In this document: positions 1-11,529 of the stretch, piece after piece
How positions within the stretch are numbered: position 1 is the first letter of the stretch
How the letters are laid out: each line of letters begins with the position of its first letter
From: a virus
IMG/VR virus record: IMGVR_UViG_3300026078_000022
Span: 1-64,000 of that record
Reading direction: 5' to 3' (one strand)
DNA length: 64,000 nt
Notes under the pieces: model-generated
Told to the model about the DNA's origin: nothing
Database searches by the model: none
What the model saw: the letters and a program-made list of their open reading frames with translations, nothing else
Position numbers and translations under genes: made by a program

Positions 1-79
1 AATAAATACAACAATGTTGCATATTTTATCTATATAATACTCTCTTTATGCAACTATGCTGCAAACTGCCTTGCACTGA

Positions 80-535
80 CTACAGTAAATTATCTGAACT
101 ATGTAGATCAGGAGTATTTAATAATACTTCTATGTAGCCTGTTTCTTGGTTAACCCATTTTTTTGTAACCCGGACATCGGCTATTTTATTATCTTCTGCC
201 AGCAAGCCATCGAAAAATCCTTTCGCGAGGTTGTCCCAATCGGGCCGTGAGTTATGCAGCATTAAATGCATGCTTTCTTTCTTATGTTTACGCCAAGAAG
301 TAGGAACAGGCATATAGAAAATTATGTGCATCCCTTGCTCTGCTGGGGTAAATCTTTGTTGTTTTGCTAATGCCAGAAGGGATACCTTGTACTTGTTGTA
401 ACGTTCTATCCTGATCAACCTTTTCAACCCGGCAGGGCGAAGTTTATCCCTGGGTATTCTAAAGAATATGGAATCACCCTGAGTAGTTCTGATTGCGCTA
501 ACCGGGGTGATATCTAATCTATACTTCTTTTGCAT
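80..535 (-). CDS. rusA: RusA-family Holliday junction resolvase
   Basis: Motif HNSRPDWDNLAKGFFDGL-EDNKI matches the RusA (K/R)PDxDNxxK...D...DD pattern; upstream FYMPVPTSW also typical. Confidence 0.85.
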   Translation of the reverse strand: MQKKYRLDITPVSAIRTTQGDSIFFRIPRDKLRPAGLKRLIRIERYNKYKVSLLALAKQQRFTPAEQGMHIIFYMPVPTSWRKHKKESMHLMLHNSRPDWDNLAKGFFDGLLAEDNKIADVRVTKKWVNQETGYIEVLLNTPDLHSSDNLL

Positions 536-704
536 TTTTACGTTTCCTTTTACGTTCTTTAATGGCGCTTTCTATAAAAATAGCGGCCATTTCCGAAGCT
601 GTTCTTCTTTCTTCGTTTGCAAATTCGCATAAATCCTCATATACAGAGCTAGGCAACTTCGGCCAAACGCGCTTATCCAAATCCTTTTGTTGTATTTCTT
701 GCAT
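519..704 (-). CDS. Ribbon-helix-helix (Arc/CopG-like) DNA-binding protein
   Basis: 61 aa; beta-strand KRVWPKLP then helices SVYEDLCEFANEERRTASEMAAIFIESAI. Confidence 0.6.
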   Translation of the reverse strand: MQEIQQKDLDKRVWPKLPSSVYEDLCEFANEERRTASEMAAIFIESAIKERKRKRKNAKEV

Positions 705-739
705 AAATTGCTACAATTGCAGCAACAAAAATACTGATT

Positions 740-1615
740 TTATGCCAGTCTTTCATATTCTTCGTGAAAATTATTTAGCCAATCGCGGCATATTTTTACT
801 TTGTCGTAAAGTCGTTGACGCTCGAATGCGGTAAAAGGATCTATTTTGATCTTTGATATTCGCTGGCGGGGTGGCATATGGTTGAATCTCATACTACGCT
901 CCCATTTAGGCCATTCTTCGATAAATTCAGGGGATTCAGTAGTAGCGCATCCTATCTTCCGAGCTACCGTCCATTGCATTTCTATGATATCTTCTTCCGG
1001 GCAGTTGACAAGCGAATTAACGATGTATCCTACCGGGGCCGTGGTAATATCGCAATATCCCTGAACCTGCTCTTTTTGGCCCCCTGATAGCCCTGTATGT
1101 ATCTTTTTCAGGAATGTTGGGTAATCGGTGGCGTTCTTCATATCCGAAATGTTGGTAGCGGCATAAACGTGTTCTCCTAAGTAGGTGTCTATTTCGCCGG
1201 AAATGTATTCGTTGTAGATTCTGTCCTTGTGTATCTTGTATTCTGCGCCGTCTACAAGGCTAAGTAGTTCTATGCTTTCCTTTTCTACTTTTTTGCCCTT
1301 CCTCATGCCCAATAAATCCAAAGATTCTTTGCCCACCGGTATCATTCCTCTTGTGATCCATGCATATTCCACCATTAAGTACTCTATGCAAGTGTCAGAC
1401 AGGATTATTTTCTTTCCATTTTCCTGTTTTACCTTCAATTCGGCAAGTTCTTCCTGTTGTTTTGGTGTTAAACTGCCTTTTTTTTGCAATTTATCCTCCA
1501 ATTCTACCATTCTTACTGCTTGAAGCTCGGTTAATACCGGATTCGATTGGCTATTTGATAGAACTTTTTGAATTGCGCTACATCTGACCTTAAAATTACC
1601 CCAATTTACTTCCAT
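740..1615 (-). CDS. YqaJ/lambda-exonuclease-like PD-(D/E)XK nuclease
   Basis: N-terminal RCSA, then GKKVE, SGEID, SDMKN (D-x-K) and QVQGY motifs in the order of this family. Confidence 0.7.
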   Translation of the reverse strand: MEVNWGNFKVRCSAIQKVLSNSQSNPVLTELQAVRMVELEDKLQKKGSLTPKQQEELAELKVKQENGKKIILSDTCIEYLMVEYAWITRGMIPVGKESLDLLGMRKGKKVEKESIELLSLVDGAEYKIHKDRIYNEYISGEIDTYLGEHVYAATNISDMKNATDYPTFLKKIHTGLSGGQKEQVQGYCDITTAPVGYIVNSLVNCPEEDIIEMQWTVARKIGCATTESPEFIEEWPKWERSMRFNHMPPRQRISKIKIDPFTAFERQRLYDKVKICRDWLNNFHEEYERLA

Positions 1616-1874
1616 CTTTACCTTTTTTAAACTTATCTATTTTATTATCAAGTATTTGACTAATTTCTGCCATTGGATTTTTCATAGAATTATACGCGGT
1701 ATCTAACCCGGCGATAAAACCCAAGCTCAATAGCAATGAAACATCTGCTATTATGATGTCTATTGAGGTATATTCCCCATCCAATTGACCGACAAATAGA
1801 TCTATGCCTAATTCCCTTGCAGACTTTTTGAAAGCAGGGATATTCCTTGATGGAATTTTGCAGTTTATAGTCAT
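1596..1874 (-). CDS. hypothetical protein
   Basis: 92 aa ORF overlapping next gene in operon. Confidence 0.6.
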   Translation of the reverse strand: MTINCKIPSRNIPAFKKSARELGIDLFVGQLDGEYTSIDIIIADVSLLLSLGFIAGLDTAYNSMKNPMAEISQILDNKIDKFKKGKDGSKLG

Positions 1875-1920
1875 GTGTTTAGTACTTATATAGGGGGGTA
1901 TTTATTTGGATTTCAATGAG

Positions 1921-2592
1921 TTAATCATAGTAGTATTCTGTCTCACATTCATCAATAATTATGGTTACTTGTTGAGCGTATAAGCGAAAGAAAAATTTAT
2001 CGAATGATCCATGCAATGATTCGGTTCTTAAGTCACCTCTATGATGACAGTACTGTCCAGCACCGAAGCTATAAGGCTTACCAGTTTTACTATCTATCGA
2101 CATTTCATATTCGCATTCATACCTTTTCTTTCCATCCTCCTTATCAAAGGAAATATGAGTTGACCCGTAATCGCTTCTTTCTACATGCAGTGTAATTTCA
2201 CCGCCATCACTTTTATCTTCTATTTCCTCCTGCTTGAACTTTTCTATTATTTCCGACAACTTCCATTCTTTCTTTTCCAATGGCCCTAAATACTCAGTAA
2301 TAGCCGCTGATATTGGGTCTTTTACTGAGGATAGAAGATGTTTGTCAAGCTGATCCTTAACAATAGACACTACAATGTGATTATAATCTACCGCCGATAT
2401 TTTCTCAAAATCTATCTTGAAAGCCTTATTTATTTCCTCCTTCAGCCCTTTACCAAAATCAGAATAGATTCTTACCATGTCCTGAATTACATCTTCCAAT
2501 GTTTTCTCAACTTTAGTCTTTACTATTTCGGCCAGCTTCCCTTCGGTTATTATCTTATTTAGTTGTTCTTGAACTAATATTTGAATATCCAT
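1921..2592 (-). CDS. hypothetical phage protein
   Basis: 223 aa ORF, A-rich start context. Confidence 0.75.
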   Translation of the reverse strand: MDIQILVQEQLNKIITEGKLAEIVKTKVEKTLEDVIQDMVRIYSDFGKGLKEEINKAFKIDFEKISAVDYNHIVVSIVKDQLDKHLLSSVKDPISAAITEYLGPLEKKEWKLSEIIEKFKQEEIEDKSDGGEITLHVERSDYGSTHISFDKEDGKKRYECEYEMSIDSKTGKPYSFGAGQYCHHRGDLRTESLHGSFDKFFFRLYAQQVTIIIDECETEYYYD

Positions 2593-2660
2593 TATTTTTT
2601 AGTTTAAGTGTTTGCTTTCTGTTACTTGTTCTTTAGTTTCTTCTGTCATGTTGATTTAGT

Positions 2661-2894
2661 TTATTGAATATTAGGTATATATGCGATATCTATGTATACT
2701 ACTTTCAAATTTTCTTGGTTCTTCCACGAATGTTTCAATACCCATTCGGCTATTCGTACGTCTTTATTACATTGAGGGGAATCACCAAAGAATAACGCTT
2801 TTTGTTCCTGCCCGTCTTCACATATCCAATAGCTGCCTCTCCTAACTATCGAGCCGGACTTAGGCTCTGTAACATCTTTAGTATTGTATTTCAT
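2661..2894 (-). CDS. hypothetical protein
   Basis: 77 aa ORF in tightly packed minus-strand run. Confidence 0.6.
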   Translation of the reverse strand: MKYNTKDVTEPKSGSIVRRGSYWICEDGQEQKALFFGDSPQCNKDVRIAEWVLKHSWKNQENLKVVYIDIAYIPNIQ

Positions 2895-2897
2895 ATA

Positions 2898-3131
2898 TCA
2901 TTCTTTTGAATACCCGTTTTTGGTAGCCCATGCATGTAGTTGATCGGTTGAGAATATTTCTTCAGGATCGAATCCTTCGCCGGTAACCCATTCAAGTATA
3001 TCATCCTTGTGGATGCCGGATATGAGTTCGTCTACTTTAGGGTCTTCAGCTATTACGGTCACGAAACCATAACGATTTGACTTTATCCTTGCTTCATCGC
3101 ATCTTATTTCTATCTCTTTTGTTTTGGGCAT
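2898..3131 (-). CDS. hypothetical protein
   Basis: 77 aa ORF, packed operon. Confidence 0.6.
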   Translation of the reverse strand: MPKTKEIEIRCDEARIKSNRYGFVTVIAEDPKVDELISGIHKDDILEWVTGEGFDPEEIFSTDQLHAWATKNGYSKE

Positions 3132-3142
3132 AATATTTTAGT

Positions 3143-3634
3143 TTATTTGAGTTTATTAAGGTCTTTTACCGTTTTGCGTTTTAATATAACGCCTTGTTTT
3201 TTCAACCATTTTTCATCAAGTAGGGTTTGATCTCTAACGGTATCTTTATGTTCTTGGGTTAATATCTCTACTGTATTTTCTGGTTTTATCTCTATTAAAA
3301 CTCCCCAACCACGGCCCATTTCTCTATCCTGTATAAATACAAGATGGCGCTTACAATCTGTTTTATCTTTTGCAAAAGGATATAAATCTTTTACTTCAAA
3401 AGAGCCACTGTCTGCATTATCTCCTATATTATCAACAGTTGGCACCTCTCTCAGTTGTAAATGAATATTTGCCGACTTAAGCATTTCTACAGCCCATTGC
3501 AATTGCTTTTTATGATACGGGTGTATAAAATTGCCGAACCCACTGAAAGTAAATTCGTTACGATCTCTTGTCCCATCCGGGCGTTCAAATACTTCAGTAT
3601 CGTCTCCCTCATTGTAGATTGTGAATTTGTTCAT
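3143..3634 (-). CDS. hypothetical protein
   Basis: 163 aa ORF, packed operon. Confidence 0.7.
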   Translation of the reverse strand: MNKFTIYNEGDDTEVFERPDGTRDRNEFTFSGFGNFIHPYHKKQLQWAVEMLKSANIHLQLREVPTVDNIGDNADSGSFEVKDLYPFAKDKTDCKRHLVFIQDREMGRGWGVLIEIKPENTVEILTQEHKDTVRDQTLLDEKWLKKQGVILKRKTVKDLNKLK

Positions 3635-3637
3635 GTT

Positions 3638-4081
3638 TTAGTTTATTGAGTTTAATGCTTCTACAGCATCGGTTACGAGTTTATGTTTATGTCTGAAGGC
3701 TGCTTTTTTAAGTTTGTCGTATAATTGGATAGCCGAATCATATTGATTAATGAACGGCGATTTATCTGGGTCATCTGTATAATAGGATATAAACGCTTCT
3801 ATGTTTTTGGGATTAACGGCTTCTATACTCCACCATCCATTGTCTGATTGGTGAATTATACCGATGTCGTTTAGGAATGAAGCATATTTACCATCTAAAT
3901 CACACTTGACACCTATCTTATAACTCAAATACAAGCCTATGTCGTTATGTACATCTAGGCATTTATCGAAATAAAACCGGTTTTGTGGGTCTAAATCCCA
4001 TTGTGAATGATTATCCGGGTTGACTCTTATTTTAGATATATCATCTACTATGTGTTCTTTTTTTTCTTGTGCCATACTCAT
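3638..4081 (-). CDS. hypothetical protein
   Basis: 147 aa ORF, packed operon. Confidence 0.7.
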   Translation of the reverse strand: MSMAQEKKEHIVDDISKIRVNPDNHSQWDLDPQNRFYFDKCLDVHNDIGLYLSYKIGVKCDLDGKYASFLNDIGIIHQSDNGWWSIEAVNPKNIEAFISYYTDDPDKSPFINQYDSAIQLYDKLKKAAFRHKHKLVTDAVEALNSIN

Positions 4082-4082
4082 T

Positions 4083-4454
4083 TTAGTTCGATTGTGAATT
4101 ATTTTCAGCTAAAGGTTTCGATGTTAAATGCCAGAAGCCACATATTTCGCATTGGTAGGATCGGTTTGGTTTCTTATGATCTCGCTTATCTTGTTTTATT
4201 AGTTTCAATGCTTTTTTGGCGGCTTCTTCATCTACGTATGAGTTCTTTTCGCAAGGAAGTGGTTCGTATTTAAATTTTAGGGGGAGGTTTGGCAATAAAG
4301 CCCAATAGGATGCTTCTATGTAAATCTTTAGTTCGGGCCACTTAGTTATTAAGTCCTCATGTCGGTATAGTTCTACAAGATATTCTTTGGGTAGTTCTTT
4401 TAGCGGTTTATTCCTGTGCTTACCGAAGGGTATTATATAATCTCCGTAGTCCAT
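4083..4454 (-). CDS. DUF3820-like (PFGKH) domain protein with C-terminal Zn-binding motif
   Basis: IPFGKHRNKPLKELPKEYL at N-terminus; YQCEICGFWHLTS at C-terminus. Confidence 0.6.
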   Translation of the reverse strand: MDYGDYIIPFGKHRNKPLKELPKEYLVELYRHEDLITKWPELKIYIEASYWALLPNLPLKFKYEPLPCEKNSYVDEEAAKKALKLIKQDKRDHKKPNRSYQCEICGFWHLTSKPLAENNSQSN

Positions 4455-4455
4455 A

Positions 4456-4809
4456 TCAGTCTACAATGAGTTGTAAATTATTGACTGCTTCTTTTGGTGT
4501 GTTGCCAAAAGCGGCGACGCTTTCTTGTAAGTTGATAAAATCATTATAATGCGCACACCAACAATCACCATCTTTTTTGACAAGAATGTTTGTATTCCAC
4601 CAGTCAGGACGCGGGCCAACATTAGGTTCCGGATTACTTGCGTTATTACTACAATACATTGCCATACAACGCCAGCCGCCTCCATAATCCCAGCAAACAG
4701 TTCCGCAATTTGGACATGGGCCTAAGTATTTATGCCATTCATCGTGTCCGGGTAATCTTTCTCCGTACTACCATCCTTTATCATTAAAGGGATTATATTT
4801 TATAGCCAT
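4456..4809 (-). pseudogene. Cys-rich (Zn-ribbon) protein interrupted by one in-frame TAG
   Basis: ATG 4809 reads MAIKYNPFNDKGW*YGERLPGHDEWHKYLGPCPNCGTVCWDYGGGWRC then in frame into ORF 4456..4665; TAG at 4770-4768. Confidence 0.6.
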
Positions 4810-4817
4810 GTTACTGT

Positions 4818-5063
4818 TTATTTTTGAGTTTTTAAAATAGTTAATACTTCTTCCCAATATTCGGTGGTTGTAATTTCATCTACCCAAATTTTACCTTCTT
4901 TTTTATAGGTTGACTGCTTCCATGTACATGGTATTATTTGCTCTACACATATAATGGCGCATTGTTTTGCGAATGGGTTTTTGCCGGGACGCATATCATT
5001 TTGAATGTTTAGAGCTTCTTTGTATTTCAGATATAACTCTTCTGATTTTTCAACGGGGGTCAT
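4818..5063 (-). CDS. hypothetical phage protein
   Basis: 81 aa, AKQCAIICVEQII...YWEEV pattern familiar from Bacteroidota phages. Confidence 0.65.
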   Translation of the reverse strand: MTPVEKSEELYLKYKEALNIQNDMRPGKNPFAKQCAIICVEQIIPCTWKQSTYKKEGKIWVDEITTTEYWEEVLTILKTQK

Positions 5064-5066
5064 TGG

Positions 5067-5357
5067 TTATTCGTTTTTGTATTCTTCCAAATGATTCATA
5101 AGTAATTTTTCGAACTCAGCTAATGGCATATTGACTATAAAACTATCCCCACTTTTCATGAAAACGTCTGTCCATATTTTATTATCCTCTCTGAAGTCGC
5201 TTACAGGGATACCCTCATGATAGCTTTCTATACACGTTATCATCACTTTTCTAATTACTTCTATCAAATCGCACTCATCAGGCCGTTTATTAAAGAGTTC
5301 TTGATTTTTAGGATCATACGCGATAGTAGGAAGTTCTACAAAACCATACTTCTTCAT
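5067..5357 (-). CDS. hypothetical protein
   Basis: 96 aa ORF. Confidence 0.6.
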   Translation of the reverse strand: MKKYGFVELPTIAYDPKNQELFNKRPDECDLIEVIRKVMITCIESYHEGIPVSDFREDNKIWTDVFMKSGDSFIVNMPLAEFEKLLMNHLEEYKNE

Positions 5358-5388
5358 GCTAGTGTGTTAGGTTTTTTGTGACATTCAA

Positions 5389-5601
5389 TTATAGCTCTTT
5401 TACTATCCTATGTTCGATAAGGTAATTCTTATAAGAACTAAGAAATAAATCTAGCGCGATACGACAATTCCCATACTGACTGATAAACACATAAGCGCCG
5501 TGTTCATTTGGTTCTATTCCTTCTTCTTTTAGGAAAGCTAATTCGTGTTTAGTAAGTTCTGTAAAAGCGGCATCCATCTTTTGTTTTTCTTCAGTGGTCA
5601 T
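5389..5601 (-). CDS. hypothetical protein
   Basis: 70 aa ORF, ATGA-coupled to upstream gene. Confidence 0.6.
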   Translation of the reverse strand: MTTEEKQKMDAAFTELTKHELAFLKEEGIEPNEHGAYVFISQYGNCRIALDLFLSSYKNYLIEHRIVKEL

Positions 5602-6002
5602 ATAGGTTTAGGGTATTTTTTAAGTCGTTTCTCAATTATATCAAAGGCTGATTTAGTTTCTTTACTTGTGGTTTCTGCTAATGTACGATACGAATACAAT
5701 CCATGCTCCCCATCAAGTACAACGCACGCATATATATCCTTTATTAGTTGGGCTACTCTTATATCTTCGGGTGTTCTATCTACATTTATTACGGGTGGTG
5801 GGCCGGGAGGCTGGGGGTTGGCTTCCATAAATGGTAGGTTCTTTGATTTATACCATTGTTGTACTAATTCCTGAGATTTATCAAGCGCATCCAATGGGCT
5901 TTCGCCATTTGAAGTATCAAGTGCCATTTCTACACTTATCCATTGGGCAACTACTACTCCATTTTCATAATGGGCCGTATACTTAGTTCTGTCTATTTTC
6001 AT
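5598..6002 (-). CDS. hypothetical protein
   Basis: 134 aa ORF, ATGA-coupled, Pro-rich linker. Confidence 0.7.
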   Translation of the reverse strand: MKIDRTKYTAHYENGVVVAQWISVEMALDTSNGESPLDALDKSQELVQQWYKSKNLPFMEANPQPPGPPPVINVDRTPEDIRVAQLIKDIYACVVLDGEHGLYSYRTLAETTSKETKSAFDIIEKRLKKYPKPI

Positions 6003-6268
6003 TTTCCGTTGTTTAATGTTTCAGAATCCCAATTCTTGTCTAAATAGAATAAAGAGCTTTGTTCGCCTTGTTTTGTATAATGACTGCCCATGCTATTGAT
6101 AGTTAAAAATTGCTGATCATTCCAACTTCCGTCGCCTTGTAATAACATCAATCTCTTAACCCCAATAAACGGATGAAACTTATCATTCCCTATTCCTAAA
6201 TCTGCCAATATTACATCATCTGGCAAGTCTTTAATTATCTGCTTTAATATTCCAACTGTTAATTCCAT
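5999..6268 (-). CDS. hypothetical phage protein
   Basis: 89 aa, LTVGILKQIIKDLPDD N-terminus. Confidence 0.65.
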   Translation of the reverse strand: MELTVGILKQIIKDLPDDVILADLGIGNDKFHPFIGVKRLMLLQGDGSWNDQQFLTINSMGSHYTKQGEQSSLFYLDKNWDSETLNNGK

Positions 6269-6273
6269 AAATT

Positions 6274-6405
6274 AAAAAGCCTGAAACAAAGTATCAGGGG
6301 TGAACCGCTTCAAACCTATATGTTTAATTCTCATTTGAAGCGCCCGGATTTCATTTCAGGCATTAAAGTTTAAAAATAAAAGCCAATTGCAGGTTCACTA
6401 TGCAA
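6274..6405 (-). promoter_or_regulatory. structured 5' leader (hairpin loop complementary to downstream terminator-like stem-loop)
   Basis: TTGCA-TAGTGAACC-TGCAA hairpin; GGTTCAC inside GCCTGAAA..TTTCAGGC stem followed by T5 and ATG. Confidence 0.55.
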
Positions 6406-6431
6406 GGCTGATCTACTATGCTTATGTTATT

Positions 6432-6647
6432 CTAAAAAGCAAATCCTTTTGTTTTCTTTTCAATATCATCGGCTAATGCATTTTTACCTAATTCACGTAA
6501 GCGCTTAACACCTGCAACTATGCCATCTTTTATTTGCTTATCGCTTTCGGCCTTATCTATCTTTTTTACTAATGCCTTTGATTCCTTATCATTTTTAAGT
6601 TCATCATATATCAACATTAGTGCTGACCCGATGTTATCGAAATTCAT
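6432..6647 (-). CDS. hypothetical protein
   Basis: 71 aa basic helical ORF. Confidence 0.6.
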   Translation of the reverse strand: MNFDNIGSALMLIYDELKNDKESKALVKKIDKAESDKQIKDGIVAGVKRLRELGKNALADDIEKKTKGFAF

Positions 6648-6692
6648 TTTGTTTATTGTTTTATTAGTGATTAAAGAAAATGATTTTGAAAG

Positions 6693-6740
6693 TTAAAAAG
6701 AGGGAGAAATAAATAGACATAAATCACTCCCTTCTTTTAA
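6693..6740 (-). terminator. intrinsic terminator closing the ncRNA array
   Basis: GAAGGGAG..CTCCCTC stem followed by TTTTT on minus strand. Confidence 0.55.
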
Positions 6741-6765
6741 ACCAGTAGAATAAAACATGAGAACA

Positions 6766-6865
6766 ATTACTAAGGGGAGAGGCGATTAATCTGCATTACC
6801 ACCTAAGACTCATGCAGCTACAGAGTCCCAATTACTTGACGTTATGTTGCTCCCCCCGTAGTAAT
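6766..6865 (-). ncRNA. putative structured RNA A (closing stem + H-type pseudoknot)
   Basis: ATTACTA/GGGGAG pairing with CTCCCC/TAGTAAT; TTGGGACTC/GAGTCTTAG stem whose loop CTGCAT pairs with downstream ATGCAG. Confidence 0.55.
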
Positions 6866-6875
6866 AAATAAAGTA

Positions 6876-7045
6876 TGTTGATGAATGGCAGGGATTTCCA
6901 TGCGTCACCCTGCAAGCCTTTTTCATCTTTCCGGCATTTAGGCATGAGCTACCGGAAACGCTTTTCAACGTATTTGACCGCTCATCGTGTTTACTATTGA
7001 GTTACTTTACATAACATCCTGTCTATTCCACCACATTCATCAACA
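6876..7045 (-). ncRNA. putative tRNA/tmRNA-TLD-like structured RNA B
   Basis: Perfect 12-bp closing stem; TGGTGGAATAGAC D-loop-like segment; GCAGGG..CCCTGC arm stacked on closing stem; GAAA tetraloop. Confidence 0.6.
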
Positions 7046-7074
7046 ATATCATCTATATAAATAAAGAACTTGTT

Positions 7075-7203
7075 TGTACAGCGACCGCAGATGGCGTGCT
7101 TAAAGTAACTTAACACATCTCTTTACACTAGATTACTTCCTTCTGTGTCTACTGCTTTTGTAGGCCAGCTTGTCAGGTTAGTCCCTGCTGCTCATGCCTT
7201 ACA
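7075..7203 (-). ncRNA. putative multibranch structured RNA C with kissing loops
   Basis: Four hairpins; loops AAGTAA and TTACTT complementary. Confidence 0.5.
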
Positions 7204-7222
7204 TATTTAAAAGAACTTAGTT

Positions 7223-7331
7223 TGCCACCCGCAAGGGGTTCGAACCCTATACCTTCCGTTACAATAATAGTGATCAGTTATCTTTCACGGTTATCCCTAT
7301 GATTATTGGCTTACGCCTCACAATGCAGGTG
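7223..7331 (-). ncRNA. tRNA-like RNA D (acceptor stem + canonical T arm, non-canonical D/anticodon arms)
   Basis: CACCTGC/GCGGGTG 7-bp acceptor; AGGG-TTCGAAC-CCCT T arm; 109 nt; no assignable anticodon. Confidence 0.65.
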
Positions 7332-7340
7332 AAATATATG

Positions 7341-7467
7341 AATGAACAGAAAAGAGAATCGCCGGTCGTAATTTCGTAGGCCAGTTACCAAATTACATCC
7401 TACTCGCGTCCCAATAACAGGCTGGCTACCCGCATCATATGATCACTCATAAATGTTTCTGTTCATT
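7341..7467 (-). ncRNA. putative structured RNA E (closing stem, GNRA hairpin, pseudoknot)
   Basis: Perfect 12-bp AATGAACAGAAA/TTTCTGTTCATT; TATGA-GTGA-TCATA; GTAGG/CCTAC crossed with GTAATTT/AAATTAC. Confidence 0.55.
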
Positions 7468-7541
7468 TAGCATCTTCCTTTCGGTCTGTGGCATGAATTT
7501 CTTCACCGCTCACCTTGTCGGGGAAATGCGCTCCCGAGCTA
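7468..7541 (-). ncRNA. putative cloverleaf RNA F with two GAAA tetraloops
   Basis: TAGC/GCTA closing; TCGGG/CCCGA; TGAA-GAAA-TTCA; CC-GAAA-GG. Confidence 0.45.
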
Positions 7542-7634
7542 TTTAAAAGAACTTGTTTAAAATAAGGCCGGGACTAAAAATAATCCCGACTGAGATTCCC
7601 GTACTGATTGTGAGTGAGAAAGTTTATAAATACC

Positions 7635-7835
7635 TTATAAATTTAATACACCTTCACGTTCAAGATAAATATTTAATTCTTGAGCATTCTTTAATACAGC
7701 GAAAGCAGCTTCTGCCATTCTTCGTTTTGTCATTGGAGCAATCCACCCTAAATCATTATCGCTACATGTTTCAGTCTCTAAAAATTCTTCCATTTTGATT
7801 TCTAATTCATTCAAATAGTAATATTCGTTTACCAT
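7635..7835 (-). CDS. hypothetical protein
   Basis: 66 aa ORF. Confidence 0.6.
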   Translation of the reverse strand: MVNEYYYLNELEIKMEEFLETETCSDNDLGWIAPMTKRRMAEAAFAVLKNAQELNIYLEREGVLNL

Positions 7836-7843
7836 GTTATTTA

Positions 7844-8119
7844 TTATAGAAAGTTTTCAAATAGTTCTTCTGCGGTTAAATAAAGACCGTTATGATAAAA
7901 TCTTAACCCTACACGGGTTTTCATACATTCAACTTCATTATTACCCATATATTCTAAGAGTTCTAAACAGGTTAAGCGCATGTACTCGTCCAATGCATTT
8001 TTAATGGCTGATTCTACTGAACTTAATGGACAATTACCTTTTTTATATTGTTCAATAATATATAAAATTGGCGCGTAATCTTTTGTTCCTTTTTCTAATA
8101 TCGCATCTCTATCAGCCAT
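7844..8119 (-). CDS. hypothetical protein
   Basis: 91 aa ORF. Confidence 0.6.
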   Translation of the reverse strand: MADRDAILEKGTKDYAPILYIIEQYKKGNCPLSSVESAIKNALDEYMRLTCLELLEYMGNNEVECMKTRVGLRFYHNGLYLTAEELFENFL

Positions 8120-8333
8120 TGTTATTACCTTTTAATTGATTAATCCTTTGTTTAATTATAGCAGGCCAGTATGCTTGTGTTGAATTGATTTCAAGTAATG
8201 ATTCTAATTCTTTAACGACACAATTATGTACATATAACCTCGCTGCTACATCCATGTCTTTACATGTAATCATAACAGCGCCATTTTCAATAACACCACC
8301 ATTACTTCGTAATACATCAATTAAACTAAGCAT
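8112..8333 (-). CDS. hypothetical protein
   Basis: ORF 8112..8411, start reassigned to ATG 8333 (A-rich context). Confidence 0.5.
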   Translation of the reverse strand: MLSLIDVLRSNGGVIENGAVMITCKDMDVAARLYVHNCVVKELESLLEINSTQAYWPAIIKQRINQLKGNNNG

Positions 8334-8430
8334 TGTTATTTGTTTTATTTTGTATCCTATCTTTTTCATCGACAACCCCAATTGCATATCCAATAAATAA
8401 ACATGTAACAACTATTATTAATAGCAACAT
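8326..8430 (-). CDS. small single-TM peptide
   Basis: 34 aa MLLLIIVVTCLFIGYAIGVVDEKDRIQ..., fills the gap between genes. Confidence 0.4.
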   Translation of the reverse strand: MLLLIIVVTCLFIGYAIGVVDEKDRIQNKTNNNA

Positions 8431-8437
8431 ACGAGTA

Positions 8438-8671
8438 TTATTTAATTCGCCAAATTCGAATGCCGGTTTCTTCAGTACGGATAGTTATTTTTATTGGGTG
8501 TTTACTTTTCTTATTATAAGAATTAAGATTGCTGTACACACTATTTTTGGCTTCAACGCCTTCTATGAAGAAACTATCACCAACCTCATTTAATAAATCA
8601 AATCTATATTTTTTCCGTGGCCGTCCTGAACCAACGTTAACCGGTATTGGTATTTTCTTCGCTATCTTCAT
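8438..8671 (-). CDS. small basic phage DNA-binding protein
   Basis: IPIP..GRPRKKYRFDLLNEVGDSFFI..GIRIWRIK pattern; TATATTTG box just upstream of ATG 8671. Confidence 0.6.
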   Translation of the reverse strand: MKIAKKIPIPVNVGSGRPRKKYRFDLLNEVGDSFFIEGVEAKNSVYSNLNSYNKKSKHPIKITIRTEETGIRIWRIK

Positions 8672-8758
8672 AAGCAAATATAAACACACAATTCATATAA
8701 ACAAATATATTTTTCACACAATTAAATAAATACCCACTCCCACGGATATAAAACAAGA

Positions 8759-8797
8759 AAGCCGGTAGCAGATAGTAGTAGGTATCTGCCCCGGCTT
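8759..8797 (-). terminator. intrinsic terminator
   Basis: AAGCCGG..GCAGATA/TATCTGC..CCGGCTT hairpin with T-rich tail on minus strand. Confidence 0.55.
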
Positions 8798-8816
8798 ATC
8801 GAATTGTTTCTCTGAC

Positions 8817-9254
8817 TTATTTATCGAAATCTACAATCACGATAGAGTCTACATTATAAATCCTAGTTCTTTTGCCTTCAGCAAATATAAGGTCTACATC
8901 ATACTTGACCTTGCCAGAATAAAAATGAACAGCTAATATTTCGGCTGGCAAACCGATGTAAGGTATATCATGATCATCAGGGCGATCTTCAAATATCACC
9001 TTATCACCTACCTGAAAGCGGGATGGCAGAGATGGCCGCTTATTTTCATACTCGCTTTGAAATTTAATAAGATCAGGAATTGATATCTTTACTTCCCCGC
9101 TCATTAAGTGTTGGATAAATTCGGCCTCTGTAGAATAAAATTGGCGGTAATGTGTAAGCCTTTCAAAAAGGAATGATGTAAACATGATATTTATAGACTG
9201 CTTTGCCAGTCCTTGCATTAGATACGAATATACTAAATTTGGTCTATGAGACAA
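8817..9254 (-). CDS. hypothetical protein with C-terminal SH3/KOW-like domain (true start probably downstream)
   Basis: RFQVGDKVIF...AEILAVHF...VKYDV beta pattern. Confidence 0.6.
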   Translation of the reverse strand: MSHRPNLVYSYLMQGLAKQSINIMFTSFLFERLTHYRQFYSTEAEFIQHLMSGEVKISIPDLIKFQSEYENKRPSLPSRFQVGDKVIFEDRPDDHDIPYIGLPAEILAVHFYSGKVKYDVDLIFAEGKRTRIYNVDSIVIVDFDK

Positions 9255-9449
9255 CCGGGTGACATTATAAAACTTGAAGGCACCGGAGACTTCGCAAATA
9301 TGGAGTGCATTGTTATGGAAGTAGATCCTATTGACGGTCGCGTAACTAAAATGAAAGCAGCTATACCAGATGACCGATTAGGTAAAATGGGCTTTATTTT
9401 AGAGGGCGAAGATTGGGTTGCCGTCGAATGGGATATAAATATGAATTAA
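9246..9449 (+). CDS. hypothetical protein (isolated plus-strand gene)
   Basis: 67 aa; TAAATTTG -7 box immediately upstream of ATG. Confidence 0.55.
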   Translation: MRQPGDIIKLEGTGDFANMECIVMEVDPIDGRVTKMKAAIPDDRLGKMGFILEGEDWVAVEWDINMN

Positions 9450-9532
9450 GAACGTTTTCCTGAAATCAAGAAAACGCAAACAATACAACCCCCTACCTTG
9501 TGTGATATGACTTAAATCACACTACCTGACAT

Positions 9533-9574
9533 AAAAAAGCCCCGATACTGCTGATGCAATTCTAATCAGGGCTT
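9533..9574 (-). terminator. intrinsic terminator
   Basis: AAGCCC..GGGCTT stem with T6 on minus strand. Confidence 0.5.
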
Positions 9575-9599
9575 ATCGACAGAACTTATCAGGAAACTG

Positions 9600-9851
9600 T
9601 CAAACTATTAATGGATTAAATAATAAATATTGCTGGCCGCTGCCAAGTTCGATTTTACCAACTTCGGTGTCCCATTCATCTTCAGGAGCATCTATATCAA
9701 CATATGCGGTTTCTGAAGTATGAAGTATTTTGTCTTCATCGAAATCTTCCATTTCATAATGCCCACTTTCAGTTGTGGTTTCGCAGCGCCACCTCAGAGG
9801 CATATCATCCGGGTATTTGGCTAAATACAATTGCAATTCTTTGTTTGTCAT
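9600..9851 (-). CDS. hypothetical phage protein
   Basis: 83 aa, MTNKELQLYLAKYPDDM N-terminus. Confidence 0.65.
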   Translation of the reverse strand: MTNKELQLYLAKYPDDMPLRWRCETTTESGHYEMEDFDEDKILHTSETAYVDIDAPEDEWDTEVGKIELGSGQQYLLFNPLIV

Positions 9852-9872
9852 AATTGATAAGTTTTTGATGTT

Positions 9873-10097
9873 TTAAACAATAACACTGCTAAAATATTCT
9901 TTTAATATAACTTTAGCTTCCTCCCTATTAGGGGATTTACTTTTTGATGGCTTTATTTCCTTACTAACATATAGGGCATCAGTAGTTTTTTCATCTTCAA
10001 ACACAAACCATTTGCCAATACCATAACTATACTCTACTGTATAATGAGATTTCCAATCGAAAAATAAAAATCGCGCATGAACGCATACATAATCCAT
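9873..10097 (-). CDS. hypothetical protein
   Basis: 74 aa; shares 18-bp leader with 9600..9851. Confidence 0.55.
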   Translation of the reverse strand: MDYVCVHARFLFFDWKSHYTVEYSYGIGKWFVFEDEKTTDALYVSKEIKPSKSKSPNREEAKVILKEYFSSVIV

Positions 10098-10242
10098 AAT
10101 TGATAAGTTTTTTTAATAATTGTTTTAAAGAAAGCCCCAACTTCATTTTTAATGTAGTCATTGAAAAGTTTTTAATTGTTAATTAATGAACCCTAAAGAT
10201 AAATACAAATTGATTAATTTAGCAAAATTAAATTCATAAAAC

Positions 10243-10572
10243 ATGAAAACATTAGGGCAAACACTTAAAGAATCAAGGGAGTTAATATCATTAACATTAC
10301 GACAGGTTGAAGAAGCGGTTGGTATATCAAACGCTTATTTAAGTCAACTCGAAAACGATAAGATAAAAAAGCCATCAGCGGATGTGCTTTATAAATTATC
10401 TCATTTATATAAAATAGAAATGGAGACATTGCTTATTGCTGCTGGTATTGTAATCGAAGATCCAAAAGCAAAAATTGGTATTTTAAAAACAATAAATGCG
10501 AAAACAAAACTCACCCAGAAAGAAGAGCAACAATTGTTGGAATATCTTCGCTTTCTTCGATCCAATAAATAA
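10243..10572 (+). CDS. XRE-family helix-turn-helix transcriptional regulator
   Basis: LGQTLKESRELISLTLRQVEEAVGISNAYLSQLENDKIKKPS is a classic HTH_3 signature. Confidence 0.9.
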   Translation: MKTLGQTLKESRELISLTLRQVEEAVGISNAYLSQLENDKIKKPSADVLYKLSHLYKIEMETLLIAAGIVIEDPKAKIGILKTINAKTKLTQKEEQQLLEYLRFLRSNK

Positions 10573-10574
10573 TT

Positions 10575-11350
10575 GCACTATTTACACAATTACCCCCAAC
10601 TATAACCCTCTTACACCCTACCCCTATTCCACCAGATCCGGCAACTCAAAGGGGATTAAAAAAATATTTTCACCCGGGTAATTTTCCCAACAAGGGAATC
10701 CCTTAAACAGAAAGAAAGCAAAATCGCCGCGCCGCCCAATTCCAAAACTCAGACCAGCCAACAACCCGAACCCCCACCCGGGCCAATCAACCCAAAAACA
10801 GAACCCTTACTCTCATTTACCCCCAAGCGTAGATCGCGCATGCTATTTCGCATGCATAGGACGACCGCTTAAACCTACGTGCGTCCTCACAGGATATTCC
10901 TTTCCTGCTGTTCGTGTAGCCTTTGCACACCCTACGGGTTTTTGCAGGCCCGGCGCGGCGGCATGGGCATCGAAAAACTATAGCCTAGCCTGAAATTTCC
11001 GGGAAAAGGAATCCATTAATTGATTATCATATAGTTATGTTATGGTTTGCTGCGCTGATTATTGTTGTGATATACCGTTGTCAATTGCTTTTGATTTTTG
11101 CCCGGGTGTGAGTTTGTTAGCTGCGATTGTCTGCGTTGATGGGGCAATGGGCCTTTCTGTGTGGGATTGGGGCGCTATTGGCTTCCTATTGCGCTACAGG
11201 GGCATTGTGTGGGTTGTGGTGTAATGGTGTATTGCTGGTTAGTTCATTGGTTTTATTGTGGATCAATGTGTTATGGTATATGTATCAGGGGTATTGGGTA
11301 TATTTGAAATATTTGTTGGAATTTATTTGGAATATTATGGGGAGGGGATT
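10575..11350. other. non-coding skew-switch region with hairpin cluster (candidate origin or genome terminus/pac)
   Basis: C/A-rich 10580-10830, GC-rich inverted repeats 10838-11010, G/T-rich 11030-11350; lies at the transcription divergence. Confidence 0.45.
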
Positions 11351-11357
11351 ATCTTTG
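11325..11357 (+). promoter_or_regulatory. Bacteroidota sigma-A-type promoter for the early region
   Basis: TTTG (-33-like) upstream of TATCTTTG (TAnnTTTG -7 box) at 11350-11357. Confidence 0.55.
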
Positions 11358-11361
11358 ACTT

Positions 11362-11529
11362 ATGAAACAAACGCAACAATATCATATCGGAGATACACTT
11401 ACACTAGATAATGGTCGTACTGTTGTTATTCGTAAAGTGATAAATTCCATTATGTTACGTGTTAGTTATGGGTTCGATACCACTGGAAAAGATATTGTGG
11501 GCGTTATCCTTATTTCTATGATTAAATAA
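11362..11529 (+). CDS. small hypothetical early protein
   Basis: 55 aa MKQTQQYHIGDTLTLDNGRTVVIRKV..., below the ORF-track cutoff. Confidence 0.55.
   Translation: MKQTQQYHIGDTLTLDNGRTVVIRKVINSIMLRVSYGFDTTGKDIVGVILISMIK

What the first reader, a model, noticed from the sequence alone, without database searches (positions are those of the whole stretch)
6766..7554. Array of about six discrete structured non-coding RNAs where a phage tRNA cluster would be
Seen: about 800 bp with no credible ORF in a densely coding genome, GC-richer than its flanks. It divides into 74-170 nt units, each closed by its own terminal helix (two are perfect 12-bp stems) and separated by short AT spacers. Three spacers carry the same AAGTTCTTT motif and a terminator closes the array. 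G-U pairs and GNRA tetraloops (GAAA, GTAA, GTGA) all favour the minus strand, co-oriented with neighbouring genes. Two units keep tRNA elbow/acceptor features and at least four have pseudoknot or kissing potential; none is a canonical tRNA. Inference: a polycistronic, processed operon of tRNA-derived or mimic RNAs, for example decoys against anticodon nucleases or RNA-sensing defence, ribosome/synthetase modulators, or antisense regulators. This is the best candidate for an undescribed system here.
Basis: partly seen in the sequence, partly recalled or inferred. Interest (0 to 1): 0.85.

Follow-up and report, generated by a model that had tools for sequence, protein, structure and literature searches.

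The report
Phage island of tRNA-like small RNAs
A 1-kb protein-free stretch in the terminal repeat of an uncultured soil phage is a real, conserved-in-place cluster of small folded RNA genes headed by a shared 16-base signal; one is a tRNA look-alike that cannot read codons, and related phages carry different tRNA-like RNAs at the same spot.

Summary
The observation largely holds. Window 6648-7634 has no credible ORF under four genetic codes. It is GC-richer than its flanks (0.40-0.45 against about 0.30), is bracketed by hairpin/T-run terminators, and holds two perfect 12-bp closing stems and three copies of AAGTTCTTT.

Only three of six units (S2, B, S6) fold better than shuffles. Only one unit (D, 7222-7331, minus strand) is demonstrably tRNA-like. 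Kissing or pseudoknot potential is above chance in at most two units.

No tRNA, tmRNA or Rfam family matches. The stretch lies in a perfect 11,478-bp inverted terminal repeat of a 102-kb Bacteroidota-type podophage, so it is present twice.

Comparative data are decisive:
- Syntenic relatives have an ORF-free RNA island at the same locus with unrelated sequence.
- Those islands carry the same 16-nt motif, exact in one relative.
- They hold tRNAs or remodelled tRNA-like RNAs: an anticodon-less Ala-type, odd-loop and rearranged forms, and a normal tRNA-Leu.
- Metagenomic variants conserve the units better than the flanking genes, show one compensatory pair, and swap whole units.

Best reading: a hypervariable cassette island of early, stable, partly tRNA-mimicking RNAs, each headed by a dedicated promoter-like motif. 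Function is inferred as a decoy or hijack of tRNA-binding machinery; seed-type sRNAs are the main rival. Expression is untested.

The parts
7567..7590 (-). Intrinsic terminator of the upstream protein operon, immediately before the array
   Evidence: Terminator scan: 10-bp stem, 5 G-C pairs, T-run
7539..7558 (-). Motif copy 1 (AAACAAGTTCTTTTAAATAG), promoter-like head of unit group 1
   Evidence: The identical 16-mer AAGTTCTTTTAAATAG is found in the relative L085 at its RNA island.
7470..7538 (-). Unit S1 (69 nt): first hairpin 7518-7537 plus weaker hairpins
   Evidence: Fold z is only -0.6. Variant contig X4 carries G7520A together with C7535T, a compensatory G:C to A:U change in the first hairpin. 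Loop-loop match GCAUUU/AGAUGC reached by 7/1000 shuffles.
7339..7469 (-). Unit S2 (131 nt): four-way junction closed by a perfect 12-bp stem
   Evidence: Stem 7341-7352/7456-7467; z -3.0 to -3.1; identical in X4 apart from the two bases at its foot
7222..7331 (-). Unit D: non-decoding tRNA-like RNA. It has a 7-8-bp acceptor stem, a GGC-GUAA-GCC hairpin in the D position, a canonical T loop UUCGAAC, and an anticodon arm expanded by about 28 nt.
   Evidence: ARAGORN calls it only at -ps80 or at -ps70 with an 'intron'. Rfam tRNA gives no hit at E<=10. Fold z -1.2 to -1.4.
7203..7221 (-). Motif copy 2 (CTAAGTTCTTTTAAATATG)
   Evidence: A 21-mer with one mismatch is present in relative L090.
7080..7202 (-). 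Unit S4 (123 nt), not detectably structured
   Evidence: z +0.4. Complementarities to unit B (10/10 and 12/13) are not significant by duplex shuffles.
7052..7075 (-). Motif copy 3 (AAACAAGTTCTTTATTTATATAG)
6870..7051 (-). Unit B (about 180 nt): multi-branch fold closed by a perfect 12-bp stem
   Evidence: Stem 6876-6887/7034-7045; z -2.2. 6863-7065 is 99.5% identical in a contig of run X5 whose sequence on both sides is different.
6760..6866 (-). Unit S6 (107 nt): junction with two hairpins closed by a G-rich stem
   Evidence: z -3.2 to -3.5. It is skipped (6732 joined to 6863) in the X5 variant, so it is a dispensable cassette.
6690..6759 (-). Single-stranded U-rich tail and closing hairpin plus T-run (terminator of the array)
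   Evidence: z -3.7 for 6690-6745. The simple scan does not list it because its loop is long.

Best explanation
The stretch is a cluster of small structured RNA genes on the minus strand, present twice because it lies in the 11.5-kb inverted terminal repeat.

Layout. It consists of three groups, each headed by the same ~16-nt element (A)AGTTCTTT(T)AAATA(G). I read this as a dedicated promoter, or the very 5' end of the RNA. The groups are S1-S2-D, S4, and B-S6-tail, and the array ends at an intrinsic terminator.

Family. It belongs to a position-conserved but sequence-hypervariable cassette locus of a clade of uncultured soil/freshwater Bacteroidota podophages. The cargo of that locus is tRNAs, remodelled tRNA-like RNAs that keep the acceptor and T arm but not a working anticodon arm, and other folded RNAs.

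Proposed working (inferred). The RNAs are made early from whichever genome end enters first. The tRNA-like modules are matured and stabilised by the host tRNA machinery (RNase P, 3' trimming, CCA addition). They act as non-decoding mimics that occupy or divert host factors recognising the tRNA top half, such as tRNA-targeting defence nucleases, synthetases or ribosome-rescue factors.

Shown: anatomy, conservation, modularity, motif and synteny. Inferred: transcription, processing and target.
For: 1. ORF-free, GC-rich and bracketed by terminators.
2. Synteny. In L082 the ORF-free island lies between homologues of window genes 7844..8119 and 5598..6002. In L083 it lies between homologues of 8817..9254 and 2898..3131 (gaps).
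3. The motif is conserved across phages whose islands are otherwise unalignable. It is exact in L085, has one indel in G004, and occurs as variants in G003, L082, L083 and L090. Several copies sit right after a hairpin plus T-run. In the genome itself the tight form occurs only in the array, and a looser form sits in two divergent promoter gaps.
4. The relatives' islands hold tRNA-related genes:
   - L083 tRNA-Leu(UAA), 62 bits.
   - L085 tRNA hit, 46.8 bits, with a 2-nt 'anticodon' by ARAGORN.
   - G004 64-nt tRNA hit, 35.2 bits, whose anticodon arm is a tetraloop hairpin and which has G3.U70 and A73.
   - A Leu-type tRNA-like with a giant variable arm.
   - tRNA segments in permuted order in L085.
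5. Unit D keeps the acceptor and a canonical T loop.
6. Selection. The array is 97.4% (X4) and 99.5% (X5) identical against about 91.5% and 96% for flanking coding pieces (Fisher p about 0.01 each). There is one compensatory pair.
7. Cassette behaviour. Unit S6 is skipped, unit B sits in a foreign context, and the flanking ORF 7635..7835 is replaced. Relatives share modules pairwise in a mosaic pattern.
8. Precedent. Cellulophaga phage phi14:2 makes abundant, early, non-decaying non-coding RNAs from gaps near its genome start (bioRxiv 10.1101/2020.03.07.982082), and one gap holds a tmRNA.
Against: - There is no transcript evidence.
- Three of six units (S1, D, S4) fold no better than shuffles.
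- No unit has a sequence homologue in any of the relatives' loci examined. Structures therefore rest on single sequences plus one covarying pair.
- The pattern 'T arm and acceptor kept, anticodon arm lost' is partly an ascertainment effect, because tRNA-likes were found through their T loops.
- The motif matches neither the Bacteroidota -7/-33 consensus nor a sigma-70 pair, so 'promoter' is an inference.
- No phage gene for tRNA processing, repair or Ro60 was seen among 40 ORFs scanned against Pfam, the ten ORFs flanking the array included.
- Unit D lacks obvious synthetase identity marks: C1:G72, C3:G70, G73.
Confidence: 0.5

Rival explanations
1. The units act mainly as base-pairing regulatory sRNAs of the Bacteroidota GibS/FopS type. 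A conserved single-stranded 5' (or 3'-tail) seed, here the GUUCUUU...AUAG motif itself or the U-rich ...CUCAUG... tail before the terminator, would pair with translation-initiation regions of host or phage mRNAs. The folded domains would only stabilise the RNA.
For: - In relative G003 the motif-headed units are short RNAs ending in terminators. They give weak hits to Bacteroides sRNA families BTnc231 (E 0.036) and FopS (E 2.7 and 6.6), whose consensus starts with a very similar U-rich ...UUUUCAUAG/G... 5' end.
- FopS sRNAs repress susC-type transporter mRNAs through such a 5' seed, and a copy was seen in a Bacteroides phage (PMC11697453).
- AUAAGGUUU words recur after tRNA(-like) units in G003, L083 and L085.
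- S4 is unstructured, as seed sRNAs are.
Against: - All Rfam hits are far below the gathering scores and occur only in a distant relative. The window itself has none at E<=10.
- The window's motif lacks the anti-start CAU.
- In L082 the motif precedes a protein ORF by 13 nt, which fits a promoter better than a seed.
- It does not explain the large multi-branch folds or the tRNA-like modules.
Confidence: 0.2
2. It is the decaying remnant of an ordinary phage tRNA gene cluster, made of pseudo-tRNAs and spacer debris with no present function.
For: - Relatives have real or near-real tRNAs at the locus (L083, L085).
- Unit D looks like a tRNA with a damaged anticodon arm.
- Three units show no excess folding.
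- Sequence content turns over completely between relatives.
Against: - The units are more conserved than neighbouring protein genes in two independent variants (p about 0.01 each).
- There is a compensatory change in S1.
- Perfect 12-bp closing stems and z of -3 in S2 and S6 are not expected of debris.
- The 16-nt motif is kept exactly across phages with 65% protein identity.
- GC stays elevated in an AT-rich genome.
Confidence: 0.12
3. The whole 800-1000 nt is one large ornate RNA, in the manner of GOLLD or ROOL, which are phage-associated, sit near tRNAs and sometimes embed a tRNA. The repeated motif would then be an internal structural repeat.
For: - The size, phage context and embedded tRNA-like element resemble GOLLD (my own knowledge of Weinberg et al. 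2009; not tested beyond Rfam).
- The 5' and 3' ends are 88% complementary over 17 nt (6730-6746 against 7551-7567).
Against: - No Rfam hit to GOLLD, ROOL or any large RNA even at E<=10.
- The whole-array fold gives z of only -1.7.
- Units are deleted or exchanged independently in variants.
- Each motif copy follows a closed unit or a terminator.
- The end complementarity is A/T-rich and contains the TTTAAA palindrome.
Confidence: 0.08
4. It is a DNA-level element rather than RNA genes: a replication, packaging or recombination site of the terminal repeat, with the motif as a protein-binding or cassette-exchange site.
For: - It lies inside the terminal repeat.
- The motif bounds exchangeable cassettes. 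This resembles the promoter-plus-stem-loop cassettes (PeSLs) proposed to mediate shuffling in T4-type phages (my own knowledge).
Against: - The strand-specific layout (terminator, motif, unit, T-run) fits transcription.
- The T loop and acceptor are in RNA order.
- A:U to G.U changes that only preserve pairing on the minus strand occur in the G003/G004 shared unit.
- Real tRNA genes occupy the locus in relatives.
- A separate, more origin-like AC-arm/core/GT-arm element lies at 10580-11300.
Confidence: 0.05

Closest known systems
T4-type phage tRNA region with co-transcribed small stable RNAs of unknown function (species 1 and 2, RNA C and D) (my own knowledge; no family model exists)
   Same: A phage locus dedicated to small stable RNAs. 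It mixes tRNA-shaped and other folded RNAs, is set among small early genes, and is hypervariable between relatives.
   Different: This window has no canonical tRNA at all. The units are headed by their own repeated motif, the locus sits in an inverted terminal repeat, and there is no sequence relation.
Early, abundant, non-decaying long non-coding RNAs of Cellulophaga crAss-like phage phi14:2, in the g004-g006 gaps (bioRxiv 10.1101/2020.03.07.982082)
   Same: A Bacteroidota podophage with kb-sized ORF-free gaps near the genome start among early genes. The gaps contain a tRNA-related RNA: ARAGORN tmRNA at NC_021806 4031-4500, Rfam 46 bits. The word AAAGAACTT is also repeated there.
   Different: There is no alignable sequence. 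phi14:2 has a full tmRNA and the window has none. The repeated word is in the opposite orientation relative to transcription. The phage family is different, with TerL unrelated at this level.
Phage tRNAs as counter-defence against tRNA-cleaving systems (PMC10264068, PMC11464382, PMC11555353; bacterial Schlafens PMC13056530)
   Same: Phage-encoded tRNA-shaped RNAs whose value lies in confronting host nucleases rather than in codon supply.
   Different: Those are decoding tRNAs with altered anticodon loops that replace cleaved host tRNAs. The units here cannot decode, so they could at most titrate, not replace.
GibS/FopS seed sRNAs of Bacteroides (PMC7366714, PMC11697453; Rfam RF04319, RF04180)
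   Same: The phylum, a U-rich conserved 5' word followed by a terminator hairpin, multicopy and paralogous organisation, and presence of a copy in a phage.
   Different: Only sub-threshold hits, and only in relative G003. The window's units are much larger and highly folded.
tRNA-like-domain-only or truncated tmRNAs and Y-RNA-like (YrlA) tRNA mimics
   Same: The acceptor and T arm are kept and the anticodon arm replaced. The G004 unit has the G3.U70/A73 alanine marks of tmRNA and tRNA-Ala.
   Different: Unit D of the window lacks G3.U70. There are no tmRNA or Y RNA hits, and no Ro60/Rsr gene was seen in the ORFs scanned.

Membership tests
tRNA (Rfam RF00005 / ARAGORN) | Cloverleaf scoring above the family threshold | tested here: not met
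   ARAGORN finds 0 genes in the window. There is no RF00005 hit at gathering score or at E<=10, and none in the whole genome at E<=1.
tRNA (Rfam RF00005 / ARAGORN) | 7-nt anticodon loop on a 5-bp stem | tested here: not met
   Unit D needs a 28-nt 'intron' at a non-canonical position, or a mispaired model at 80% threshold.
tRNA (Rfam RF00005 / ARAGORN) | Acceptor stem plus canonical T arm (UUCGAAC loop) in the right order | tested here: met
   Unit D only: CACCUGC/GCGGGUG stem and AGGG-UUCGAAC-CCCU T arm.
tmRNA (RF00023 and related; ARAGORN -m) | tRNA-like domain with G3.U70 plus a tag reading frame | tested here: not met
   No hit. The positive control phi14:2 is found by both tools.
Large ornate phage-associated RNAs (GOLLD, ROOL and others in Rfam 15) | Match to the covariance model | tested here: not met
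   No match at E<=10 over 6500-7800.
Bacteroidota GibS/FopS/BTnc231 sRNAs | Match to RF04319 or RF04180; single-stranded 5' seed plus terminator | tested here: not met
   The window has none. Relative G003 gives only 17-22 bits against cut-offs of 56-80.
Clade-specific RNA cassette island (defined here) | Syntenic ORF-free gap between the same flanking genes | tested here: met
   L082 and L083. G004 is at a similar distance from the contig end, with a homologue of the 291-aa gene nearby.
Clade-specific RNA cassette island (defined here) | (A)AGTTCTT(T)(T)AAA(A)TA motif heading the units on the transcribed strand | tested here: met
   Three copies in the window. Also in L085 (exact), G004, G003, L082, L083, and L090 (opposite strand there).
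Clade-specific RNA cassette island (defined here) | At least one tRNA or tRNA-like module | tested here: met
   Window unit D; G004 (2), L085 (2-3), L083 (1), L082 (1).
Clade-specific RNA cassette island (defined here) | Transcribed into discrete stable RNAs | not testable with these tools
   No RNA run holds the sequence, and no isolate exists.

The most novel reading that the evidence does not exclude
A clade of soil Bacteroidota phages carries, in its terminal repeats, a rapidly exchanging toolkit of non-decoding tRNA mimics and other ornate small RNAs. These would be transcribed from a private 16-nt promoter class and neutralise host tRNA-directed immunity or reprogramme translation without any protein. 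This would be an RNA-only counter-defence arsenal organised like an integron of RNA cassettes.
Probability: 0.25. Interest if true: 0.85.

Novelty: new variant of a known kind. Interest (0 to 1): 0.6.

Why it matters
Phage tRNA clusters are usually read as codon supply or, recently, as replacements for tRNAs cut by host defences. Here a whole clade keeps the locus, its private start signal and the tRNA top-half shape while dropping the ability to decode, and it swaps the cargo between close relatives. That points to selection on RNA shape rather than on decoding.

If the RNAs are expressed, they give a tractable set of natural tRNA mimics and unknown folds (S2, B, S6). They could be used to probe which host factors they bind: RNase P/Z, the CCA enzyme, synthetases, tRNA nucleases, ribosome rescue factors.

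The locus also flags a candidate new promoter class in Bacteroidota phages. It shows that tRNA finders and Rfam miss such islands entirely.

Tried and rejected
Searches for homologues of the window's units that found nothing:
- blastn against 50,697 phage records.
- Exact 21-23-mers of units B, D and S2 in IMG/VR.
- blastn of the array against five TerL relatives and against 24 anchor-gene loci, where only the motif matched.
- The shared G003/G004 module pattern found only those two records.

Searches for relatives:
- Single-protein search for related loci with TerL and with the 134-aa neighbour found nothing.
The 367 homologue contigs of the anchor protein and the roughly 270 TerL relatives could therefore not be fetched.
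- The metagenome records found through TerL could not be searched or extended, because no handle was given out.
- The closest TerL relative (95%, WNFY01000300.1) is a 79,062-bp contig that equals only the unique region, so it lacks the island.

Expression:
- No RNA holder was listed for the stretch, so expression could not be examined. The laid runs were DNA contigs only.

Ideas tested and dropped:
- Alternative genetic codes as an explanation of the gap.
- A crAss-like virion RNA polymerase. No DFDxD-type motif is present in any ORF of 400 aa or more, and PHROGs has no hits for the giant proteins.
- Inter-unit antisense pairing between S4 and B.
- General kissing-loop design.
- A GIY-YIG reading of the ORF next to the L085 island, which gave no Pfam hit.
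- Phage-encoded RNA-processing enzymes. Pfam scans of 30 further ORFs found only RusA, an HTH_3 regulator, NinG, a DnaJ domain, a DNA methylase and weaker sub-threshold matches. The ten ORFs flanking the array gave only sub-threshold matches.
- The G001 motif match, which lies inside a long ORF and is taken as chance.
Full report
**What the window is.**
- The window is the first 64 kb of a 102,001-bp IMG/VR virus record. Its first and last 11,478 bases are perfect inverted copies. The array is therefore present twice, at 6750-7560 and again at 94442-95252 of the record.
- The large terminase is only about 24% identical to those of Flavobacteriia podophages (Cellulophaga phi38:1, Flavobacterium 'elemo' phages).
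- It has many uncultured relatives on 75-94-kb contigs. The DNA occurs in rhizosphere and soil metagenomes.
- A 95%-TerL relative is a 79,062-bp contig that matches the unique region between the repeats. Another relative carries the same terminal gene inverted at both ends (L083/L084). The repeat is therefore probably real.

**Checking the observation.**
- Between the minus-strand genes 7635..7835 and 6432..6647 there are 987 nt without an ORF above 52 aa. This holds under tables 11 and 4, TAG=Q and TAA=Q.
- GC rises to 0.39-0.445 from 0.29-0.33 in the flanks.
- The two perfect 12-bp stems and the thrice-repeated AAAGAACTT word (plus strand) are confirmed.
- On the minus strand the order is:
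  1. operon terminator (7590-7567);
  2. motif 1;
  3. S1, S2 and D;
  4. motif 2;
  5. S4;
  6. motif 3;
  7. B and S6;
  8. a U-rich tail and a hairpin plus T-run (z -3.7).
- Against 200 dinucleotide shuffles, S2 (z -3.1), B (-2.2) and S6 (-3.2 to -3.5) are unusually stable. S1, D and S4 are not. The array as a whole gives z -1.7.
- ARAGORN, Rfam at gathering scores and Rfam at E<=10 find nothing.
- Relaxed ARAGORN recognises only unit D. It has an acceptor stem and a canonical T arm, and its anticodon arm carries about 28 extra bases.
- Its other relaxed calls span motifs or need 94-314-nt 'introns', and I discard them.
- Loop-loop complementarity beats shuffles only in S1 and marginally in S2. 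Inter-unit duplexes are not significant.

**Population variants.**
- A contig of run X4 covers 7288-7591 with 7 substitutions and one indel, while the neighbouring ORF 7635..7835 is replaced by 34 unrelated bases. Its further flanking pieces are about 89-93% identical.
- Two of its substitutions, G7520A and C7535T, are the two sides of one base pair of the first S1 hairpin (coordinates read). This is a compensatory G:C to A:U change.
- A contig of run X5 keeps 6863-7065 (unit B) at 99.5%. It joins 6732 directly to 6863, so S6 is absent, and it continues beyond 7065 into different sequence that ends in a T-loop-like GGATTCGA.
- Array pieces are less diverged than flanking coding pieces in both runs (Fisher p about 0.01 each).
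- The units therefore behave as conserved, exchangeable cassettes.

**Distant relatives found through TerL.**
- None of six IMG/VR relatives aligns to the array.
- G004 (TerL 42%) has a 1.1-kb ORF-poor stretch about 6 kb from its end on the same strand. It contains:
  - a hairpin plus T-run followed by AGTTCTTTAAATATA;
  - a 64-nt RNA that passes the Rfam tRNA threshold (35.2 bits). Its anticodon arm is a 6-bp hairpin capped by a 4-nt loop, and it has G3.U70 and A73;
  - a tRNA-Leu-like RNA with a canonical D arm and T arm, a 5-nt anticodon-position loop and a roughly 35-nt variable arm.
- G003 has a 420-nt gap. In it AAAGTTCTTTTTTCATAGGG follows a terminator and heads short terminator-ended RNAs.
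- G003 and G004 share an 82-nt module (77% identity, E 1e-13). Its changes include two A:U to G.U switches that keep pairing only on the minus strand.

**Closer relatives found through the 291-aa anchor protein.**
- This gene (window 740..1615) is well conserved. An alignment of it retrieved 24 IMG/VR loci.
- In L082 the ORF-free island lies between homologues of window genes 7844..8119 and 5598..6002. In L083 it lies between homologues of 8817..9254 and 2898..3131. This is the same locus.
- The sequences do not align to the window, except for the motif.
- L085 contains the exact 16-mer AAGTTCTTTTAAATAG and a second TTTTAAATAG.
- L082 has AAGTTCTTAAAATATA 13 nt before a 63-aa ORF.
- L083 has AAGTTCTTTGAATTTTATTTAT.
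- L090 has a 21-mer one mismatch from motif 2.
- Cargo of these islands:
  - L083: a normal tRNA-Leu(UAA), 62 bits.
  - L085: a 46.8-bit tRNA for which ARAGORN finds only a 2-nt anticodon.
  - L085: a 77-nt unit with T arm and acceptor 3' strand followed by acceptor 5' strand and D arm, which is permuted order. The fold is ambiguous. Its D arm matches that of the G004 64-mer.
  - L082: a tRNA-like with a GGTTCAAATCC T loop.
- Modules are shared pairwise (G004-L082, L082-L083, L083-L085, G003-G004) in a mosaic pattern.

**What the motif is.**
- It marks the start of units and several copies follow a terminator.
- Its tight form is confined to the islands. A looser TTCTTTAAA(A/T) sits in the two divergent promoter gaps of the genome, at 10132 (minus strand) and 49760 (plus strand). 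In one relative it precedes an ORF.
- I therefore read it as a promoter of a phage-specific class. It resembles a -10-only element such as TAAATA with a conserved upstream half.
- It fits neither sigma-70 nor the Bacteroidota TAnnTTTG/TTTG consensus (PMC7366714).
- The alternative is that it is the 5' seed of the RNAs. This is raised by weak Rfam hits of the G003 units to Bacteroides BTnc231 and FopS, whose models begin with a similar U-rich ...UUUUCAUAG word (PMC11697453).
- No crAss-type RNA polymerase motif is present in any ORF of 400 aa or more.

**Function.**
- Nothing here tests function.
- The most economical reading of the anatomy is an early, terminally duplicated RNA island. Its tRNA-like members use host tRNA maturation and then act as non-decoding mimics.
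- The recurrent pattern across four phages is that acceptor and T arm are kept while the anticodon arm is remodelled. The Ala identity marks of the G004 unit fit this. However, the pattern is partly an ascertainment effect.
- The phi14:2 precedent shows that such islands can be highly expressed in Bacteroidota phages. There the non-coding RNAs are early, abundant and non-decaying, and one gap holds a tmRNA (bioRxiv 10.1101/2020.03.07.982082).
- Seed-type regulation is the main rival. Neutral decay is disfavoured by the conservation data.

**Verdict.**
- This is a real, conserved-in-place, modular RNA gene island. It is a new variant of the phage tRNA/stable-RNA cluster theme.
- There is one clear tRNA mimic in this window, and there are several unclassified folds.
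It was too generous on tRNA features and pseudoknots, and its functional ideas remain open.
- Other readers of this scan noted the same array in the other repeat copy, and noted comparable non-canonical tRNA arrays in unrelated phages. These were used only as leads.

Noticed in passing
window 1-11478 (and record 90524-102001): A perfect 11,478-bp inverted terminal repeat. It carries RusA (80..535), about 25 small ORFan genes, the RNA island and an HTH_3 regulator (10243..10572). A relative (L083/L084) also has its terminal genes inverted at both ends, and a 95%-TerL contig equals only the unique region. Long inverted repeats are unusual for tailed phages.
   Followed up: partly
window 10580-11300: A strongly A/C-rich arm (about 10580-10830), a GC-rich (about 0.5) ORF-free core (10830-11040) and a G/T-rich arm (about 11040-11300), just inside the repeat boundary at 11478. 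This may be an origin or another RNA.
   Followed up: no
L079 (NC_021806, Cellulophaga phage phi14:2) 4031-4500: One of the two gaps reported to give abundant early long non-coding RNAs holds a tmRNA gene. ARAGORN gives the tag GSSVQKLAMVA and Rfam gives 46 bits against a cut-off of 47. The record shown does not annotate it. Upstream, at about 3545-3585, AAAGAACTT-type words are tandemly repeated before a removed ORF.
   Followed up: partly
L038 (G004) 6069-6132, minus strand: A 64-nt tRNA-like RNA with G3.U70 and A73 (alanine identity marks), canonical D and T arms, and a 6-bp hairpin capped by a 4-nt loop in place of the anticodon arm. It passes the Rfam tRNA threshold, but ARAGORN and the filtered cmscan miss it.
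   Followed up: partly
L085 7120-7196: tRNA-derived segments in permuted order: T arm and acceptor 3' strand, a short loop, then acceptor 5' strand and D arm. The unit ends in a T-run and is directly followed by the exact 16-nt motif. The MFE fold offers two alternative closures.
   Followed up: partly
L082 5102-5293: A 63-aa ORF with repeated (N/D)DP(F/W) words starts 13 nt after a copy of the motif, inside the RNA island. It has no Pfam match.
   Followed up: partly
L083 10562-10711: The extreme contig end is a 63-nt perfect inverted repeat with a 24-nt loop. It is either a fold-back assembly artefact or a terminal hairpin. The window's own end has nothing similar.
   Followed up: partly
window 21370-43818: Three giant minus-strand ORFs (1499, 2523 and 1564 aa) have essentially no PHROG match, and no ORF of 400 aa or more carries a DFDxD-type RNA polymerase motif. 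They are presumably virion or ejection proteins.
   Followed up: partly
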